A program made the position numbers and the translations under genes. Source: Cyanobacteriota bacterium (GTDB lineage: Bacteria > Acidobacteriota > Vicinamibacteria > Vicinamibacterales > UBA2999). From it: a DNA stretch of 64,000 bases. Below the pieces are notes generated by a model that worked only from the letters and a program-made list of their open reading frames with translations, was not told where the DNA came from and searched no databases. Shown in pieces: positions 1 through 63,924 of this stretch. The stretch lies in assembly GCA_019752015.1 (NCBI GenBank), contig JAIEMQ010000041.1:4469-68468 (forward strand), read 5' to 3'. Numbering within the stretch: the stretch's first letter is position 1; every line of letters begins with the position of its first letter.

Positions 1-1272
1 GTTGTTCCGCTGAGAAATCAGCGGCCCCATTGAAGCGTAGCCCTTGGCCGTACGCGCCCACCCTGGTCGGAGTTGCCGTTGTTCCGCTGAGAAATCAGCG
101 GCCCCATTGAAGCGCCGGCCAAACGTGGGCGCTCGACGACAACGGCAAGTTGTTCCGCTGAGAAATCAGCGGCCCCATTGAAGCTCGTCTTCCCCGTTCT
201 CGTTGAGCATCTGAATGAGGATGTTGTTCCGCTGAGAAATCAGCGGCCCCATTGAAGCATGGAACAGCGATTCAAAATTTACTGCGTTCCAGTTGTTGTT
301 CCGCTGAGAAATCAGCGGCCCCATTGAAGCTGAAAAAATCCAATAGTCATCGCTGTTTGTCCCTTCGTTGTTCCGCTGAGAAATCAGCGGCCCCATTGAA
401 GCGATCGAGGATATGGATATACCACTGGTGACCGTGCCGTTGTTCCGCTGAGAAATCAGCGGCCCCATTGAAGCTGCCTGAACCCATGAACGGATCAAGC
501 ACCAGCTCACGTTGTTCCGCTGAGAAATCAGCGGCCCCATTGAAGCGAGCTGAGCGAGTGGCGAGCTGGTCAATCGACCAGCGTTGTTCCGCTGAGAAAT
601 CAGCGGCCCCATTGAAGCTGCTACAACCGCGGGAAAGCTGGAATTCAGGCCAGTTGTTCCGCTGAGAAATCAGCGGCCCCATTGAAGCTGAGGTGTGTTG
701 CAGTGGGGAGGTGGGAGCTAGTTGGTTGTTCCGCTGAGAAATCAGCGGCCCCATTGAAGCTCGAGCGTGGGCTTGTACTTCGCCCCTTTTTTCGGCGTTG
801 TTCCGCTGAGAAATCAGCGGCCCCATTGAAGCACTTCAACGGGAGCACCGCATTCACACAGACATCGAGTTGTTCCGCTGAGAAATCAGCGGCCCCATTG
901 AAGCCGTCGCCGACGCGCGTCGATCCGCCCTGCGTCTTGACGTTGTTCCGCTGAGAAATCAGCGGCCCCATTGAAGCGCGGGTGCAGGTGCCGAAGGTGC
1001 CGTACCACTCGTGTTGTTCCGCTGAGAAATCAGCGGCCCCATTGAAGCCCGTGTTTGCGCTGCTGGGATTTGACGGTTCCGACGACAGTTGTTCCGCTGA
1101 GAAATCAGCGGCCCCATTGAAGCCCCGCCGTCCAGCGCATGCCACCCGGCGAGTGGGTCTCCGTGTTGTTCCGCTGAGAAATCAGCGGCCCCATTGAAGC
1201 GACGCGACACGGAGCACGTCCCGACCCATCCAGGTCGTTGTTCCGCTGAGAAATCAGCGGCCCCATTGAAGC
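1..1272 (+). CRISPR. CRISPR array: 18 identical 36-bp direct repeats and 17 spacers (34-41 bp). It runs off the left edge of the window.
   Basis: The repeat GTTGTTCCGCTGAGAAATCAGCGGCCCCATTGAAGC starts at 1, 78, 149, 223, 295, 367, 439, 511, 583, 653, 725, 797, 869, 942, 1013, 1088, 1165 and 1237. It has an internal 7-bp stem CCGCTGA/TCAGCGG. The 3' end ATTGAAGC resembles the ATTGAAA(C/G) handle of Cas6-processed class 1 repeats, so + orientation is assigned tentatively. Confidence 0.97.
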
Positions 1273-1459
1273 CAGGGATTGGGCCAAACGCGTAAAGCGA
1301 AGGTAAACACTCAGTTCAGAAAGATCATGCGTACGCAAGACTGCTGCCCAGATGAAACAGGAAGGCACCGCGCTGAGTTACACACCGTTTCTGTATTGCT
1401 GAGCAGTAAAGTGGTCGATCTTCGAGAATCCCGAGGACGAAAGTGGCGTCGGCGAGCGA
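1273..1459. other. Non-coding flank of the CRISPR array (leader or trailer), visibly less GC-rich than the neighbouring genes
   Basis: A 187-bp gap lies between the last, perfect repeat and the stop of the response-regulator gene. About 50% GC by eye. The only ORF here (1279..1497) has no recognisable features. Confidence 0.4.
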
Positions 1460-3843: not shown

Positions 3844-3932
3844 GACAATCGGGCTACTGGCTGGGGCACGTTACGCCTGCAGCCAGACACTGTCAAGAAG
3901 AAGTCCCGTGCCCCCGATCGATGCAGCTCTCT

Positions 3933-3957
3933 CTAGATCTAGATCTAGATCTAGATC
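3933..3957. repeat. Perfect (CTAGAT)x4 hexamer microsatellite, fully self-complementary
   Basis: The sequence reads ctagatctagatctagatctagatc. It lies between the NHL gene stop (3971) and the kinase start (3843). Confidence 0.95.
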
Positions 3958-12629: not shown

Positions 12630-12662
12630 CACAGATTAGACACAGATTGGACGCAGAGGGTT
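12630..12662 (+). repeat. Tandem 11-mer array CACAGATTAGA / CACAGATTGGA / CGCAGAGGGTT filling the stop-to-start spacer
   Basis: Read directly. The upstream stop is at 12623-12625 and the next ORF starts at 12661. Confidence 0.85.
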
Positions 12663-34318: not shown

Positions 34319-34320
34319 AT

Positions 34321-34355
34321 CAGGGATCAGGGATCAGGGATCAGGGGTCAGGGGT
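34321..34355 (+). repeat. Tandem heptamer array (CAGGGAT)x3 (CAGGGGT)x2 occupying the entire stop-to-start spacer
   Basis: Read directly. Upstream TAA at 34316-18 and downstream ATG at 34360. Confidence 0.95.
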
Positions 34356-34359
34356 CACG

Positions 34360-42668: not shown

Positions 42669-46453
<3,785 letters not shown>

Positions 46454-46454
<1 letters not shown>

Positions 46455-51770: not shown

Positions 51771-51965
51771 GGTCCGGCTAAAGCCGGACCCTCACAAGAA
51801 TCATGTGAGGGTCCGCCTTTTGGGCGAACCGACTTCCCAATAATCATGTGAGGGTCCGCCTTTAGGCGAAACGACTTCTCAATAATCATGTGAGGGTCCG
51901 CCTTTAGGCGAACCGACTTCTCAATAATCATGTGAGGGTCCGCCTTTAGGCGGACCAATCTGTGT
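51771..51965. repeat. REP-like hairpin in inverted orientation, followed by about four tandem 42-43-bp units each carrying TGTGAGGGTCCGCC
   Basis: GGTCCGGCTAAAGCCGGACCCTCACA is at 51771-51796. TGTGAGG starts at 51804, 51847, 51889 and 51931. Only the last unit keeps an intact stem (GGTCCGCC-TTTA-GGCGGACC). Confidence 0.9.
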
Positions 51966-51979
51966 AGAATCATCCCGCT

Positions 51980-54199: not shown

Positions 54200-54201
54200 A
54201 T

Positions 54202-54241
54202 CTGTTGACCTATTGATCTATTGATCTATTGATCTGTTGAT
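54202..54241 (+). repeat. Tandem octamer array CTGTTGAC (CTATTGAT)x3 CTGTTGAT occupying the entire stop-to-start spacer
   Basis: Read directly. Upstream TGA at 54197-99 and downstream ATG at 54243. Confidence 0.95.
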
Positions 54242-54242
54242 C

Positions 54243-59309: not shown

Positions 59310-59507
59310 GTGGCGATGGCAACCCAGGTTCCGGCGATCAAGGTCTTGCTGCTGCCGAAAGACAACGCGCTCGGCACCATCTTCGGCGGCGCCATCCCCT
59401 CGCACATCGACCTGGCGTCGGCGGTCGAAGCGCGCAAGGTGACGGAGGCGGAAGTGGTGCTCGTCGCCGTCGGGCCTGACGAAGCGCCGGTACCAATTCG
59501 TCCTTAG
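59310..59507 (+). pseudogene. Possible 5' fragment of a hotdog-fold acyl-CoA thioesterase (YciA-like)
   Basis: 65-aa ORF. LLLPKDNALGTIFGGAIPSHIDLASAVEARK resembles the N-terminal half of YciA-type thioesterases (P.D.N..G.iFGG.i....D.A). The frame ends in a TAG that is also the first bases of the tandem octamer array. Confidence 0.4.
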
Positions 59508-59537
59508 GCACCCAGGCACCGAGGCACCCAGGCACCT
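59506..59537 (+). repeat. Tandem octamer array (AGGCACCN)x4 ending 2 nt before the thrB ATG
   Basis: AGGCACCC, AGGCACCG, AGGCACCC, AGGCACCT, read directly. ATG at 59540. Confidence 0.95.
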
Positions 59538-59539
59538 GA

Positions 59540-60475
59540 ATGATTGCAGTCTTCGCTCCCGGATCGGTTTCTAACGTCGCGTGCGGCTTCGACATCATGG
59601 GGTTTGCACTCGAAGAACCCGGCGATGTGGTGGTTGCGGCGCCTCAGGACGATCCCGGTGTGTCGATTGCCGCGATCCACGGCGACGACGGCCGGTTGAC
59701 GACGGATCCGCTGAAGAACACCGCGTCGGCGGCGGTGCTCGCGCTGCTCGAGCGGCTCGAGACGACTCGCGGGGTCGCGTTGACGATTCACAAGGGCCTG
59801 CCGCTCGCGAGCGGCATCGGCAGCAGCGGCGCCAGCGCCGTCGCCGCGGTGGTGGCCGCCAACGAGCTGCTCGGCCGGCCGGCGCCGATGTCCATGCTGC
59901 TCGAGTGCGCGATGGCTGGAGAGTTTGCGGGCTGCGGCTCCGTCCATCCCGACAACGTCACGCCGTCGTTACATGGCGGCTTCATCCTCGCCCGCAGCGC
60001 GCAGCCGCCCGACATTGTCCGCCTGCCCGTGCCCGAAGGCCTGGCGTGCGCGGTTTTGCACCCGAAGATGGAAGTGGAGACCGGCGCCGCGCGGACGCTG
60101 CTCGGCAATCAGGTGGCGCTGAAGGATGCGACCAGGCAGTGGGCCAACGTCGGCGGCCTCGTCGCGGCGCTCTACACCTCTGATCTCGGGCTGCTGTCGC
60201 GATCGCTGGTCGACTCGATCGCGGAACCGAAGCGCGCCTCGCTCGTGCCCGGATTCTTCGACGTGAAGTCCGCCGCGATCGCCGCCGGCGCACTCGGCGC
60301 GAGCTTGTCCGGCTCCGGTCCGTCGATCTTCGCGCTCGCGCCATCACTCGAGATCGCCCGCGCCGCGGGTGACGCAATGCGAACCGCCTTCGCGCGCGCG
60401 AGCAACGTCGGCGCCGATCTCTGGGTGTGCCCTGTAGGTCGCAGCGGCGCGCGTGTCATAAGCAGCCACAGATGA
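59540..60475 (+). CDS. thrB: Homoserine kinase
   Basis: 311 aa. GHMP kinase motif GLPLASGIGSSGASAVAAVVA. N-terminal APGSVSNVACGFD. Adjacent to thrC. Confidence 0.9.
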   Translation: MIAVFAPGSVSNVACGFDIMGFALEEPGDVVVAAPQDDPGVSIAAIHGDDGRLTTDPLKNTASAAVLALLERLETTRGVALTIHKGLPLASGIGSSGASAVAAVVAANELLGRPAPMSMLLECAMAGEFAGCGSVHPDNVTPSLHGGFILARSAQPPDIVRLPVPEGLACAVLHPKMEVETGAARTLLGNQVALKDATRQWANVGGLVAALYTSDLGLLSRSLVDSIAEPKRASLVPGFFDVKSAAIAAGALGASLSGSGPSIFALAPSLEIARAAGDAMRTAFARASNVGADLWVCPVGRSGARVISSHR

Positions 60476-60693
60476 CACAGATTTCACAGATTAGAGCTCG
60501 CCCCGCGGCGCCGGTCGAAGACCGGCGCGCGCGTCGAACCGCCGACGATCGAAAATCAAGAGAGCATTCGTGACCCGGCGGGCTCTCTTGATTTCGATCG
60601 TCGGCGGTTCGACCGGCGGCCTTCGGCCGCCCGCGGGGCGAGCGCATTTGGTGAGCGCGCCGTCTTTAATCTGTGTAATCTGTGTAATCTGTG
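60467..60693. repeat. 227-bp foldback element between thrB and thrC, with terminal inverted arrays of three 9-mers (CACAGATGA, CACAGATTT, CACAGATTA ... TAATCTGTG x3)
   Basis: Inner arms pair as follows. GAGCTCGCCCCGCGG (60494-508) pairs with CCGCGGGGCGAGC (60631-43). TCGAACCGCCGACGATCGAAAATCAAGAGAGC (60535-65) pairs with GGCTCTCTTGATTTCGATCGTCGGCGGTTCGA (60581-612). Each arm also carries a local hairpin (60509-28 and 60612-30). The thrB stop codon lies inside the first 9-mer. Confidence 0.9.
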
Positions 60694-60701
60694 GATCCCA
60701 A

Positions 60702-61997
60702 ATGATCTGCGTCAGCACGCGCGGGAAGGCGCCGGCGGTTTCACTCAAGGACGCCGTCCTCGCCGGGCTCGCGCCCGATGGCGGACTCTACGTGCCGCAG
60801 ACGATTCCACGAAAGCCAGCGTCGTGGTGGTCGGCGCTGCGCGGCAAGTCGTTTCACGACATCGCCATCGCGATCGCGCTCGAGCTGGCCGGCGATGAAT
60901 TCGATCACGCCACGATCACCAATCTCGTCCGCGAAGCGATCAACTTCCCGGTCCGCATCGTCGAGCTGGAAAAAGGCCTCGCTGTGCTCGAGTTGTTTCA
61001 CGGCCCGACGTTCGCCTTCAAGGATTTTGGCGCGCGTACGCTAGCCCGCCTGCTTGCCCTGAGCGAGCGTGGCGCCGCTGCCAGCGGCGGCACGCGAGTC
61101 GAAGGGATCACGATCCTCGTGGCGACGTCGGGCGATACGGGCAGCGCGGTCGCGAACGCGTTTTTCGGCGTCGACGGCACGCGCGTCGTCGTGTTGTATC
61201 CGGAGGGTAAGGTCAGCGACGTCCAGGAAGCGCAGTTCACCACGCTCGGCGGCAACGTGGCCGCCGTTGCAGTCGCCGGAACATTCGATGACTGCCAGCG
61301 TCTCGCGAAGGAAGCCTTCGCCGATCCAGCGCTGCAATCGCGCGTGAAGCTGACGTCCGCGAACTCGATCAGCCTCGGCCGGCTGCTGCCGCAAATGTTC
61401 TATTACGCGTACGCGTCGCTGCAGTCCTCCGCGGACCGGCAGTTGACGATTTCAGTCCCGTCGGGCAACTTCGGCAATCTCGTCGCCGGCGTGATGGCGT
61501 GGAAGATGGGCGCCGAGATTCAATGCTTCCGCGCCCCGACTACCATCAACGACACGGTGCCACGCTACTTCGAGTCCGGCCGCGTCGAGCCAAGGCCGTC
61601 GATGCAGACCCTTGCAAATGCGATGGACGTCGGCAATCCGAGCAACCTCGAGCGGCTGCAGTGGCTGTTCGGCGGCGATCTGGCGGCCATGAAAGCCGTG
61701 ATCACGACAATGCCGTTCAACGATGACGATGTGCGCAGGGCGATCGCGACGCTGTTCGAGAAATACGGATACGTGGCCGATCCGCACACCGCGATCGGTT
61801 ATCTCGGCGTGCCGCAGAAGCGGACCGGTTTGACGTTGTTCCTGGCCACCGCACACCCTGCAAAGTTTCGAGAAGTCGTGCAGCCCGTGATCAAAAGGGA
61901 CGTCCCGCTGCCTGATGCGTTGGCCGAAACGATTGCACGCAAGAAACACGTGCAACGCATCAGCCCGCGGCTTGCTGAGCTATCGAAGTTGTTATGA
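60702..61997 (+). CDS. thrC: Threonine synthase
   Basis: 431 aa from ATG 60702. GGLYVPQ. PLP-lysine motif FHGPTFAFKDFG. TSGDTGSAV. The upstream extension of ORF 60570.. reads through the foldback and is rejected. Confidence 0.92.
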   Translation: MICVSTRGKAPAVSLKDAVLAGLAPDGGLYVPQTIPRKPASWWSALRGKSFHDIAIAIALELAGDEFDHATITNLVREAINFPVRIVELEKGLAVLELFHGPTFAFKDFGARTLARLLALSERGAAASGGTRVEGITILVATSGDTGSAVANAFFGVDGTRVVVLYPEGKVSDVQEAQFTTLGGNVAAVAVAGTFDDCQRLAKEAFADPALQSRVKLTSANSISLGRLLPQMFYYAYASLQSSADRQLTISVPSGNFGNLVAGVMAWKMGAEIQCFRAPTTINDTVPRYFESGRVEPRPSMQTLANAMDVGNPSNLERLQWLFGGDLAAMKAVITTMPFNDDDVRRAIATLFEKYGYVADPHTAIGYLGVPQKRTGLTLFLATAHPAKFREVVQPVIKRDVPLPDALAETIARKKHVQRISPRLAELSKLL

Positions 61998-63840: not shown

Positions 63841-63843
63841 CGC

Positions 63844-63924
63844 GGTCCGCCTAGAGGCGGACCCTCACAGGATTGAGCGCGGGCCCCCAACGGATTATTG
63901 TGAGGGTCCGGCTTTAGCCGGACC
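63844..63924. repeat. REPIN-like doublet: GGTCCGCC-TAGA-GGCGGACCCTCACA, a 29-nt spacer, then TGTGAGGGTCCGGC-TTTA-GCCGGACC
   Basis: Two copies of the hairpin family seen at 51771-51965, in inverted orientation. The stems differ by a compensated pair (CC/GG versus GC/GC). Confidence 0.85.

What the first reader, a model, noticed from the sequence alone, without database searches (positions are those of the whole stretch)
60467..60693. 227-bp foldback with triple-9-mer termini inserted between thrB and thrC
The element begins inside thrB. The stop codon is part of the first CACAGATGA unit, so the last residues ..SHR* are element-encoded. It ends 8 nt before the thrC ATG.

The termini are (CACAGATNN)x3 and the exact inverted (TAATCTGTG)x3. 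Inside, two long arm segments of 13-15 and 31-32 nt pair almost perfectly. Each arm also carries its own local GC hairpin, giving a branched rod. The right arm has an extra unpaired 23 nt.

In a thrB-thrC co-transcript this would be a very stable structure. I see no target-site duplication and no transposase. Termini made of tandem short repeats resemble eukaryotic Foldback transposons more than known bacterial MITEs or REPs.
Basis: partly seen in the sequence, partly recalled or inferred. Interest (0 to 1): 0.8.

Follow-up and report, generated by a model that had tools for sequence, protein, structure and literature searches.

The report
Gene-less hairpin of GxxExxY-nuclease repeat family
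The 227-bp foldback between thrB and thrC is real, and it looks like an old, gene-less copy of a widespread and apparently undescribed family of bacterial hairpin repeats whose arms are three 9-bp units and which elsewhere accompany a small nuclease gene (GxxExxY).

Summary
Window 60466-60694 is a near-perfect branched palindrome (RNA -165, DNA -103 kcal/mol, z about -15). Its arms are three 9-mers each, the thrB stop lies in the first unit, and thrC starts 8 nt after the last.

It is not a recent insertion. Ten other Vicinamibacterales contigs carry the orthologous element with 24 compensatory stem pairs. Close relatives have empty junctions or other tandem-repeat hairpins there. The core occurs in two mutually inverted states among close relatives.

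The core is specific to this locus, but the arms are not. (CACAGATNN)x3, almost always exactly three units and often paired with an inverted copy, turned up in at least 120 loci across many phyla, including inside a 23S rRNA gene.

Longer family members carry a GxxExxY gene (TIGR04256/PF13366, a PD-(D/E)XK nuclease of unknown function). Of 15 independently sampled GxxExxY genes, 10-11 are bracketed by inverted triple 9-mers, and two further sampled genes by complete hairpins.

Best reading: a non-autonomous, REPIN-like member of a GxxExxY-associated palindromic repeat family, tolerated because its stem brings the thrB stop and thrC start together. Mobilisation by the nuclease is inferred, not shown. 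I found no paper describing the repeats.

The parts
59540..60475 (+). thrB (homoserine kinase). The last codons ..CAC AGA TGA (His-Arg-stop) are supplied by the element's left arm.
   Evidence: NF002288 E 1e-102. About a third of close homologues end in ..HR, the others are 308 aa.
60466..60493 (+). Left arm: C + CACAGATGA CACAGATTT CACAGATTA (three 9-mers).
   Evidence: Same architecture as 152 of 156 arrays in other genomes.
60496..60508 (+). P1 left strand GCTCGCCCCGCGG. It pairs with 60631-60643 and bounds the invertible core.
   Evidence: I7, 100% complementary. Covariation at 5 positions. Core inverted in L121, L133, L140, L141, L142.
60508..60528 (+). Local hairpin A: GCGCCGGTC-GAA-GACCGGCGC.
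   Evidence: Invariant stem in all orthologues. On the opposite side and reverse-complemented in state-2 relatives.
60533..60613 (+). Central long hairpin (arms 60533-60565 / 60582-60613, loop 60566-60581). The apex AAGAGAGC/GCTCTCTT is conserved. The middle of the stem is fast-evolving but always paired.
   Evidence: many both-sides-changed pairs in columns 72-104 / 122-154
60615..60631 (+). Local hairpin B: GGCGGCC-TTC-GGCCGCC.
60631..60643 (+). P1 right strand CCGCGGGGCGAGC.
60644..60666 (+). Unpaired 23-nt 'tail' GCATTTGGTGAGCGCGCCGTCTT. It is conserved and always on the thrC side, so it lies outside the invertible segment.
60667..60694 (+). Right arm: (TAATCTGTG)x3 + G, followed by ATC, which completes the family's outer GAWC motif.
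60702..61997 (+). thrC (threonine synthase). The ATG lies 8 nt after the right arm, and the start is conserved in orthologues.
   Evidence: TIGR00260 E 3e-77
12630..12660 (+). Possible solo, degenerate arm of the same family: CACAGATTAGA CACAGATTGGA CGCAGAGGG, between a stop codon and the next start.
   Evidence: No inverted partner found.

Best explanation
The element is a gene-less palindromic repeat of a family defined by its arms. Each arm is about 30 bp: an outer GA(T/A)C-C followed by three 9-bp units (CACAGATtN in this flavour). The two arms lie in inverted orientation.

Shown:
- The same arms form short intergenic hairpins in many bacterial phyla.
- In complete members, the arms or whole hairpins bracket a 123-125-aa GxxExxY protein gene (PD-(D/E)XK nuclease fold, catalytic D..ExK conserved).
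- The thrB-thrC copy is old and inherited vertically within a Vicinamibacterales clade. Every nested stem stays complementary through paired changes. Its core has flipped at least twice, and close relatives lack the element entirely.

Inferred:
- It entered the thrB/thrC junction once and replaced the thrB stop.
- It is a non-autonomous relative of GxxExxY cassettes, analogous to a REPIN relative to its RAYT gene. It was spread, or is still maintained, by that nuclease acting on the hairpin or cruciform form of the arms.
- Arm-to-arm correction (template switching or recombination between arms) keeps it palindromic and causes the flips.
- It is tolerated in the operon because the 31-bp basal stem puts the thrB stop at its 5' foot and the thrC start 8 nt from its 3' foot. 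This recreates the tight stop-start geometry of the empty junctions. Any effect on thrBC expression (RNase III cleavage, protection of the thrB 3' end) would be a generic hairpin effect.
For: Anatomy and stability.

Arm family:
- 152 of 156 arrays have exactly 3 units.
- An outer C is present in 128 of 156 arrays. In complete pairs the GAWC flank is shared, and about 40% of arrays have an inverted partner with at most 5 of 26 mismatches within 550 nt.
- Host G+C ranges from 29 to 74%.
- Two such hairpins lie inside an LSU rRNA gene of a Falkowbacteria MAG.

Link to GxxExxY:
- The cores of L057 and L078 encode TIGR04256/PF13366 proteins (E 1e-43 and 9e-36).
- In an independent sample of GxxExxY genes taken by protein similarity, 10-11 of 15 have 27-nt inverted flanks at 19-25 of 27 matches. 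Shuffles reached at most 19.
- Two further high-GC genes are flanked by a complete 3+3 hairpin on each side.
- The arms always have three units, and the ORF's stop codon sits in the first right-hand unit.

The nuclease:
- AF2 model pLDDT 93.9. The best PDB matches are Cas4 SSO0001, lambda exonuclease and RecE-type nucleases. E28, D68 and E78 are invariant and K80 nearly so.
- GxxExxY proteins from Gemmatimonadota, Planctomycetota, Chloroflexota and Binatia are 70-75% identical to the Gemmatirosa query. Published phylogeny reports 'multiple transfers' (PMC3424549).

This copy:
- Orthologues L121-125, L130, L131, L133, L135, L136 and L140-142.
- 83 consensus pairs, 24 with both sides changed.
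- Two inverted states, and a tight clade holding E1, E2 and an empty site.
- In L143 a CGCAGAG-flavour hairpin sits where the core is, with one TAATCTGTGG unit left next to thrC.
- GxxExxY genes likewise sit between co-directional operon genes, for example fabD-fabG and radA-FAD protein.
Against: - No GxxExxY gene was found in the 64-kb window or in about 250 kb of Vicinamibacterales DNA. The family's presence in this order was not shown.
- The 170-nt core is single-copy and conserved in blocks, unlike copies of a MITE.
- There is no target-site duplication, and no case of one identical element at two sites.
- Every exact GxxExxY protein looked up sat in a single genomic context, so recent transposition was not observed.
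- Two proteins with the same arm flavour are only 34% identical, so protein-arm co-evolution is not evident.
- 2 of 15 genes have direct rather than inverted flanking repeats, and 3 are unclear.
- Nuclease activity and arm binding are untested.
- A shuffled-unit control could be run only on viral contigs, where most hits of any 9-mer pattern are coding repeats.
Confidence: 0.6

Rival explanations
1. A locus-specific cis-acting RNA structure of the thrBC operon. Examples would be a processing or stability hairpin, or a device that couples thrC translation to thrB termination. On this view it was selected at this junction, and the arms are only its basal stem.
For: - Conserved blocks (hairpins A and B, the apex AAGAGAGC, the tail) and 24 compensatory pairs across relatives with 82-92% ThrB identity.
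- 16 of 18 sampled lineages keep some hairpin at this junction.
- The thrB stop and thrC start sit at the two feet of the stem.
Against: - The core is inverted in 5 of 11 orthologues, which would destroy any strand-specific RNA.
- The sense strand is not consistently the more stable one. It wins in 5 of 11, so G-U pairs are not enriched on it.
- The element is absent in L134 and L126-128, and replaced by unrelated repeat hairpins in others.
- No Rfam match.
- The same arms occur at hundreds of unrelated loci.

A generic hairpin effect remains compatible with the best explanation.
Confidence: 0.2
2. A palindrome born and grown in place by replication slippage and template switching, with no mobility and no dedicated protein. 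The arm's resemblance to hairpins in other phyla would be convergent.
For: - This genome is rich in short tandem repeats at gene junctions, and even inside metH.
- The junction holds several different repeat hairpins in relatives, with 9-, 11- and 13-mer units.
- Units change in concert on both arms, for example CACAGAT to CACGGAT, or period 9 to 11 in L142.
Against: - The same heptamer, the same number of units (three) and the same outer GAWC-C recur in phyla with 29-74% G+C.
- The specific association with one protein family is not expected from local slippage.
Confidence: 0.1
3. A programmed invertible switch (inverton), flipped by a site-specific recombinase to control thrC.
For: Two mutually inverted states of the core among very close relatives, at least twice independently.
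Against: - The flip boundaries lie in the 13-bp P1 stem, not in the conserved arms. The tail never moves.
- No promoter-like site in the element, and terminator-like sites are at the chance level.
- No recombinase gene next to it.
- Nested levels seem to flip independently, as expected for passive recombination or template switching in palindromes.
Confidence: 0.05
4. A classical TIR transposon derivative (a MITE moved by a DDE transposase), or a bacterial counterpart of eukaryotic Foldback elements.
For: Terminal inverted repeats built of tandem sub-repeats, small size, and no coding capacity.
Against: - No target-site duplication.
- No transposase family recurs near 120 arm-bearing loci.
- The only recurrent gene inside or next to the arms is a 123-aa PD-(D/E)XK protein.
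- No match in 72,556 plasmids and one weak match in phages.
Confidence: 0.05

Closest known systems
REP / REPIN elements with their RAYT genes (REPtrons, TIRtrons)
   Same: Short extragenic palindromes dispersed at gene junctions, often co-transcribed. Single or few copies of a small nuclease gene are flanked by the same repeats in inverted orientation. Gene-less copies far outnumber gene-bearing ones. There is no target-site duplication. REPs also occur inside genes (PMC3733652).
   Different: The associated protein is a PD-(D/E)XK (Cas4/lambda-exo-like) GxxExxY protein, not an HUH tyrosine transposase. The arms are three tandem 9-mers without a GTAG or CGTC tag. The same arm sequence is shared across phyla, whereas REP families are mostly lineage-specific. 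GxxExxY genes are often multi-copy.
MITEs such as Correia elements of Neisseria
   Same: Small non-coding elements with inverted termini, inserted between genes and folding into long hairpins in transcripts.
   Different: No target duplication, no related DDE insertion sequence, and a locus-specific core. This copy is ancient and vertically inherited.
Eukaryotic Foldback (FB) transposons
   Same: Inverted termini composed of short tandem sub-repeats; the whole element can fold back.
   Different: FB arms are hundreds of bp to kb with variable repeat numbers and 9-bp target duplications. Here there are exactly three 9-mers per arm, no duplication and a bacterial host. There is no evidence of common descent.
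23S rRNA intervening sequences (IVS)
   Same: Hairpin-forming insertions tolerated inside a transcript. Two CACAGAT hairpins lie inside a Falkowbacteria LSU rRNA gene.
   Different: The thrB-thrC copy lies between protein genes. Excision by RNase III was not tested.
Intergenic tandem heptamers shared across phyla (TAACTGA repeats, MacGregor 2015, PMC4679880)
   Same: A specific short unit, tandemly repeated next to start codons, shared by distant phyla with no known mechanism.
   Different: Those are direct repeats of 2-43 copies without an inverted partner or an associated gene.

Membership tests
REP/REPIN-RAYT | 20-40 bp imperfect palindrome tagged at one end by GTAG or CGTC (PMC3733652) | tested here: not met
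   The arms start GA(T/A)C-CACAGAT and end ATCTGTG-GA(T/A)C. No GTAG or CGTC tag.
REP/REPIN-RAYT | Associated HUH tyrosine transposase (RAYT) gene flanked by the repeats | tested here: not met
   The gene flanked by the repeats is TIGR04256/PF13366, a PD-(D/E)XK fold. No recurrent other family was found near 120 loci.
REP/REPIN-RAYT | Many dispersed extragenic copies in the same genome | not testable with these tools
   Only 64 kb of the genome is available, holding one full element and one degenerate solo arm. Other genomes show 3-8 or more loci each among the first 120 hits.
MITE | Terminal inverted repeats | tested here: met
   31-nt arms, 90% complementary (I1)
MITE | Target-site duplication | tested here: not met
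   The flanks of 26 complete pairs only extend the palindrome; there are no direct repeats.
MITE | Autonomous partner with the same termini encoding a transposase | tested here: inconclusive
   GxxExxY cassettes share the termini, but transposase activity of GxxExxY is unknown.
Eukaryotic Foldback transposon | Long inverted arms of variable numbers of tandem sub-repeats, 9-bp target duplication, eukaryotic host | tested here: not met
   Exactly three units in 152 of 156 arrays, no duplication, host is Vicinamibacterales.
Triple-9-mer hairpins associated with GxxExxY genes (family delimited here) | Two inverted arms, each of three 9-nt units of type C(A/G)C(A/G)(G/A)A(T/A)NN, with an outer C/G | tested here: met
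Triple-9-mer hairpins associated with GxxExxY genes (family delimited here) | Sits at a gene junction, typically between co-directional genes, with a neighbouring stop or start codon in or next to an arm | tested here: met
   The thrB stop is in unit 1 and the thrC ATG is 8 nt after unit 3. Compare.
Triple-9-mer hairpins associated with GxxExxY genes (family delimited here) | GxxExxY ORF between or beside the arms (complete members) | tested here: not met
   No GxxExxY-like ORF in the element or the window. This copy is gene-less, like most CACAGAT-flavour copies.
Inverton (phase-variable invertible promoter) | Segment between inverted repeats found in both orientations | tested here: met
   State 1 in the window, L123, L130, L131, L135 and L136. 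State 2 in L121, L133, L140, L141 and L142.
Inverton (phase-variable invertible promoter) | Promoter inside the segment and a dedicated recombinase | tested here: not met
   No promoter-like site. The neighbours are speA, a thioesterase, thrB, thrC and pepF.
Known structured RNA (Rfam 15) | Match to a curated covariance model | tested here: not met
   Only a sub-threshold chance hit to mir-46 in the window, and nothing at the arrays of 18 loci.

The most novel reading that the evidence does not exclude
The arms mark a new class of selfish or mobile element, spread across most bacterial phyla. It would be a roughly 450-bp cassette, or a hairpin-gene-hairpin unit, whose only gene is a 123-aa PD-(D/E)XK nuclease (GxxExxY). 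That nuclease would recognise the triple-9-mer hairpins and disseminate both itself and a much larger population of gene-less hairpins into operon junctions, coding linkers and even rRNA genes. This would be a nuclease-based counterpart of the REP-RAYT system, and it would give the large uncharacterised GxxExxY family a function.
Probability: 0.35. Interest if true: 0.85.

Novelty: new variant of a known kind. Interest (0 to 1): 0.72.

Why it matters
GxxExxY (PF13366) is a very large protein family: all of about 8,000 scored candidates were significant in each of two searches. Its function is unknown, and I found almost no literature on it in the open-access library.

Linking it to a sharply defined DNA motif (three 9-mers per arm, inverted) gives a testable hypothesis for what the protein acts on. 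It also points to a REP/RAYT-like partnership built on a different nuclease fold.

The link would explain a class of long hairpins that sit inside operons, and sometimes inside rRNA genes, in phyla that are poorly studied experimentally: Acidobacteriota, Planctomycetota, Chloroflexota, Bacteroidota, Verrucomicrobiota and CPR.

For this locus, it shows how a 227-nt rod can persist between two translationally linked biosynthetic genes. It also offers a natural series of alleles (two orientations, empty, replaced) for testing what such hairpins do to operon expression.

Tried and rejected
- **Exact-protein look-ups.** ThrB and ThrC of the window found nothing. Relatives had to be reached through homologues.
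- **Rfam.** Nothing at the element or at arrays in 18 loci.
- **Literature.** Full-text searches for the tandem string, for foldback/MITE terms and for GxxExxY/PF13366 found no description of the repeats. One search failed on syntax.
- **Shuffled-unit control.** It could be run only on viral contigs. Real and control patterns both hit there (53 and 34 loci; the CACGGAT flavour gave 89), mostly tandem repeats lying inside long open reading frames. Raw counts there are therefore uninformative. The discriminating features are three units plus an inverted partner.
- **Neighbouring genes.** Clustering ORFs of at least 100 aa within 2.5 kb of arrays found no recurrent family. This test missed GxxExxY because gene-bearing copies are rare in the CACAGAT flavour.
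- **ORFs abutting arrays.** These were extracted but not scanned against Pfam.
- **Plasmids and phages.** No match in plasmids and one weak match in phages for the hairpin itself.
- **Ideas considered from memory and dropped for lack of fit.** DnaA boxes, parS/P1 box A, sigma-70 or extended -10 promoters, Shine-Dalgarno or anti-SD complementarity, RNase E sites, Tn7/Mu end repeats, integron attC, uptake sequences.
- **RNA-level selection on the sense strand.** Rejected, because the plus and minus strands fold equally well on average.
- **GxxExxY in viral contigs.** Only 2 loci.
- **GxxExxY in Vicinamibacterales.** I could not show that the family occurs in this order (one search names other phyla only).
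Full report
**1. The observation**

Window 60466-60694 reads:
- C + CACAGATGA CACAGATTT CACAGATTA
- GA
- GCTCGCCCCGCGG
- hairpin A (GCGCCGGTC-GAA-GACCGGCGC)
- a 33/32-nt central hairpin with a 16-nt loop
- hairpin B (GGCGGCC-TTC-GGCCGCC)
- CCGCGGGGCGAGC
- a 23-nt unpaired tail
- (TAATCTGTG)x3 + G

.

The thrB ORF (59540-60475, NF002288 E 1e-102) stops at TGA 60473-60475, inside the first 9-mer. thrC (TIGR00260 E 3e-77) starts at 60702, 8 nt after the last 9-mer.

The strand folds into one branched rod. As RNA it gives -165.1 kcal/mol (z -15.8) and as DNA -103.3 kcal/mol (z -15.3). No shuffle of 200 reached either value.

**2. The organism and the junction in relatives**

ThrB homologues place the window in Vicinamibacterales, Acidobacteriota. 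Among the 120 closest ThrB proteins, most are 308 aa and end ..GARVIS. About a third are 310-311 aa and end ..(I/V)xxHR, which is the translation of ATC CAC AGA TGA. A few end ..HGLRG, from the CACGGATTA CGCGGATGA variant.

DNA of relatives shows four situations at the same junction:
- **(a) The orthologous element**, 217-246 nt, with the same order of parts. Carriers are L121/122, L123-125, L130, L131, L133, L135, L136, L140, L141 and L142.
- **(b) Empty junctions.** L126-128 have a 13-nt spacer. In L134 the thrB TGA overlaps a GTG start.
- **(c) Other foldbacks made of different tandem units.** These are 13-mers in L129 and L132/L147, and 11-mers in L137-139.
- **(d) L143.** A CGCAGAG-type hairpin occupies the place of the core, and a single TAATCTGTGG unit survives next to thrC.

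So the element is an insertion relative to the ancestral tight junction, but an old one that is inherited vertically.

**3. How this copy evolves**

I reverse-complemented the core of five sequences (see below) and aligned ten of the eleven orthologues; L142, whose arms have an 11-nt period, was left out. The alignment gives a consensus of 83 pairs, and 24 of them keep pairing through changes on both sides.

The units of the two arms change in concert. CACAGAT/ATCTGTG becomes CACGGAT/ATCCGTG in all units of L130-L133. The period changes from 9 to 11 on both arms of L142.

The sense strand does not fold better than the antisense strand; it wins in 5 of 11. The complementarity therefore looks like a DNA-level property, or one that serves both strands, rather than selection on the thrBC mRNA alone.

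The core bounded by the 13-nt P1 stem exists in two states:
- **State 1** has hairpin A on the left with loop GAA and hairpin B on the right with loop TTC. It occurs in the window, L123, L130, L131, L135 and L136.
- **State 2** has the two hairpins swapped and reverse-complemented. It occurs in L121, L133, L140, L141 and L142.

The 23-nt tail never moves.

On a thrB neighbour-joining tree, the tight clade L130/L131/L133/L134 contains state 1, state 2 and an empty site. The window (state 1) groups with L121 (state 2). That implies at least two recent inversions and one near-precise loss. The tree was not bootstrapped.

The apical loop of the window resembles the un-flipped loop of L121. This suggests that nested levels flip independently, but the point is tentative.

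The conserved blocks of the core (hairpin A, hairpin B, the apex, P1, the tail) occur only at this locus in about 3 Mb of fetched DNA.

**4. The arms are a widespread motif**

By my own rough estimate for 21 fixed bases, about 0.3 would be expected.

The hosts span:
- Acidobacteriota, including three other Vicinamibacterales loci
- Planctomycetota, Chloroflexota, Bacteroidota, Verrucomicrobiota and Cloacimonadota
- Ignavibacteria, Armatimonadota, NC10, Nitrospirota and CPR
- some Alphaproteobacteria, including cultured isolates (Asticcacaulis, Segatella copri, Anaerophaga)

. Their G+C content ranges from 29 to 74%.

The arrays share these features:
- 152 of 156 have exactly three units.
- The base before the first unit is C in 128 of 156.
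- The two free positions are mostly TA, TT, GA or TG.
- About 40% have an inverted partner with at most 5 of 26 mismatches, 0-550 nt away.
- In complete pairs the flanks extend the palindrome as GA(T/A)C, with no direct duplication.

Typical members are 50-190-bp hairpins at gene junctions, and their cores are unrelated between loci. Orthologous conservation is also seen in Pyrinomonadaceae (L011 and L018).

Two hairpins lie inside an LSU rRNA gene of a Falkowbacteria MAG. No Rfam family matches, no paper in the library holds the string, and no plasmid record matches.

A shuffled-unit control was possible only on viral contigs. Hits there are mainly tandem repeats lying inside long open reading frames, for real and control patterns alike. 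The argument therefore rests on the three-unit rule, the inverted partner and the shared flanks, not on raw counts.

**5. The associated gene**

Two of the longest members have a core that is a gene. They are L057 (a Prevotella MAG) and L078 (a Planctomycetota MAG, frameshifted). The product is a GxxExxY protein (TIGR04256, E 1e-43 and 9e-36; Pfam PF13366 PDDEXK_3). L057 holds a second GxxExxY gene with degenerate CACGGAT-type arms.

To test the link without bias from the DNA pattern, I sampled GxxExxY genes by protein similarity. The sample comprised three gut-metagenome genes, two viral-contig genes and eight plasmid or megaplasmid genes from six phyla.

With one uniform measure (best 27-nt inverted match between the 110-nt flanks, against 30 shuffles):
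- 10-11 of 15 independent genes score 19-25 of 27, against a shuffle maximum of 19.
- Two have direct repeats instead.
- Three are unclear, although two of those have an array or a complete hairpin beside the gene.

The units differ in 'flavour': CACGAAT, CACGGAT, CACAGAT, CACGAAA, CACAGAGG, CACAGAGA, CGCGAAG. The design is constant, however. Each side has three 9-mers, the ORF fills the space between them, and its stop codon lies in the first right-hand unit.

Two further high-GC genes (L425 and L435, flavour CGCAGAGGA) are flanked by a complete three-plus-three hairpin on each side. That is the arrangement described for RAYT genes and REPs (PMC3733652).

All these genes sit between co-directional genes of operons, such as fabD-fabG, radA-FAD protein and polysaccharide loci. 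This is the same kind of site as thrB-thrC.

**6. What the protein is**

A confident model (pLDDT 93.9) matches Cas4 (SSO0001), lambda exonuclease, RecE and MGME1 cores, with TM-scores of about 0.55 on the query. E28, D68 and E78 are invariant and K80 nearly so in 42 sequences, which is the D..ExK signature.

The published survey lists PF13366 as 'Unknown' with 'multiple transfers' (PMC3424549). No PDB entry matches by sequence.

Proteins 70-75% identical to the Gemmatirosa query are named from Gemmatimonadota, Planctomycetota, Chloroflexota and Binatia. This fits horizontal spread, and it fits the sharing of arm sequences across phyla.

Against recent mobility, each exact protein looked up had only one genomic context.

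**7. Interpretation**

Shown:
- the anatomy of the element
- its age and vertical descent
- concerted evolution of the arms, flips of the core, and loss of the whole element
- the dispersed arm family
- the statistical association of that design with GxxExxY genes

Inferred:
- The thrB-thrC element is a gene-less derivative or relative of such cassettes.
- The nuclease acts on the arms, probably in hairpin or cruciform form, and accounts for their spread.
- Nested palindromes accumulate by insertion into earlier hairpins. L027, L093, L143 and L397 versus L400 point that way.
- The element persists in the operon because its basal stem restores the proximity of the thrB stop and the thrC start.

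I put 0.6 on this reading. A locus-specific RNA function gets 0.2 and is not exclusive, because a generic hairpin effect may have been co-opted. Purely local slippage gets 0.1. An inverton and a DDE-type MITE or Foldback element get 0.05 each.

**8. Comparison and novelty**

The closest known system is REP/REPIN-RAYT. The likeness is functional and architectural. Membership fails on both defining features I could test: there is no GTAG or CGTC tag, and the protein is not an HUH transposase.

The element is not a Foldback transposon in any sense beyond shape. I rate it a new variant of a known kind (palindromic non-autonomous repeats with an associated nuclease gene). There is a 0.35 chance that it represents a new class of mobile element driven by a PD-(D/E)XK nuclease.

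Noticed in passing
window 1-1292: CRISPR array: 18 copies of the 36-nt repeat GTTGTTCCGCTGAGAAATCAGCGGCCCCATTGAAGC, with spacers of about 34-41 nt. It runs off the window start.
   Followed up: no
window 51771-51973 and 63843-63924: A REP-like repeat family: GGTCCGCC-TTTA-GGCGGACC next to CTCACA..ATCATGTGAG. There are four tandem 42-nt units after one gene, and an inverted pair after pepF.
   Followed up: no
window 43320-43396 and 45430-45460 (inside metH, 42669-46454, minus strand): Methionine synthase (NF007024, E 0) carries an in-frame foldback made of tandem 7-mers (GAGCCGG / CCGGTTC). It encodes about 25 extra residues (..[25 protein letters not shown]..). A second (GAGCCGG)n run lies 2 kb away. 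This is a palindromic repeat inside a coding region, reminiscent of Rickettsia palindromic elements.
   Followed up: partly
window 59506-59536, 54200-54242, 34319-34357, 3932-3957: Several stop-to-start spacers consist almost entirely of short tandem repeats: (AGGCACCC)x4 directly before the thrB ATG, (ATCTATTG)x5.4 and (ATCAGGG)x5.6. A fourth run, (TCTAGA)x4.3, has no mapped context. They recall the intergenic heptamer repeats described by MacGregor 2015.
   Followed up: partly
window 12630-12660: Solo arm-like array CACAGATTAGA CACAGATTGGA CGCAGAGGG (11-nt period, two flavours side by side), between a stop codon and the next start. No inverted partner.
   Followed up: partly
L031 797-876 and 1468-1544: Two (CACAGATNN)n hairpins lie inside a bacterial LSU rRNA gene of a Candidatus Falkowbacteria MAG (Rfam RF02541 covers L031 1-1779, minus strand). 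They look like intervening-sequence-style insertions.
   Followed up: partly
L129 10928-11153; L132/L147; L137-L139; L143: The same thrB-thrC junction holds unrelated foldbacks in other Vicinamibacterales. These are about eleven 13-mers CACGGAGGTTCKT plus four inverted copies (L129), GGTTCCGCACGAC-type units (L132/L147), 11-mers GTTCTRCGGNN (L137-139), and a CGCAGAG-type hairpin with one surviving TAATCTGTGG unit (L143). The junction is a hot spot for repeat hairpins.
   Followed up: partly
P0241-P0360 (homologues of the Gemmatirosa GxxExxY protein, L417): GxxExxY proteins 70-75% identical to the Gemmatirosa query are named from Gemmatimonadota, Planctomycetota, Chloroflexota (Oscillochloris) and Binatia. 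This is unusually high for different phyla and suggests recent horizontal transfer.
   Followed up: no
L102 4600-7260 and L110 3740-5500 (Candidatus Anammoxibacter MAG): Kilobase-long non-coding stretches hold dozens of same-strand triple 9-mers of several flavours (CACAGAT, CACGGAT, CACTAAT, CACGAAT), separated by A-rich spacers.
   Followed up: no
L397 versus L400, 1173-1340: At the same operon site in closely related gut bacteria, an extra ORF-less hairpin (CACAGAT-type left arm plus an 85-nt AT-rich core) is present next to the GxxExxY gene in one contig set and absent in the other.
   Followed up: partly
L072 5450-5985 (Candidatus Cloacimonas MAG): Tandem repeats of about 130 nt whose translation weakly matches the C-terminal part of GxxExxY proteins (E about 8e-4). 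They may be repeated gene fragments.
   Followed up: no
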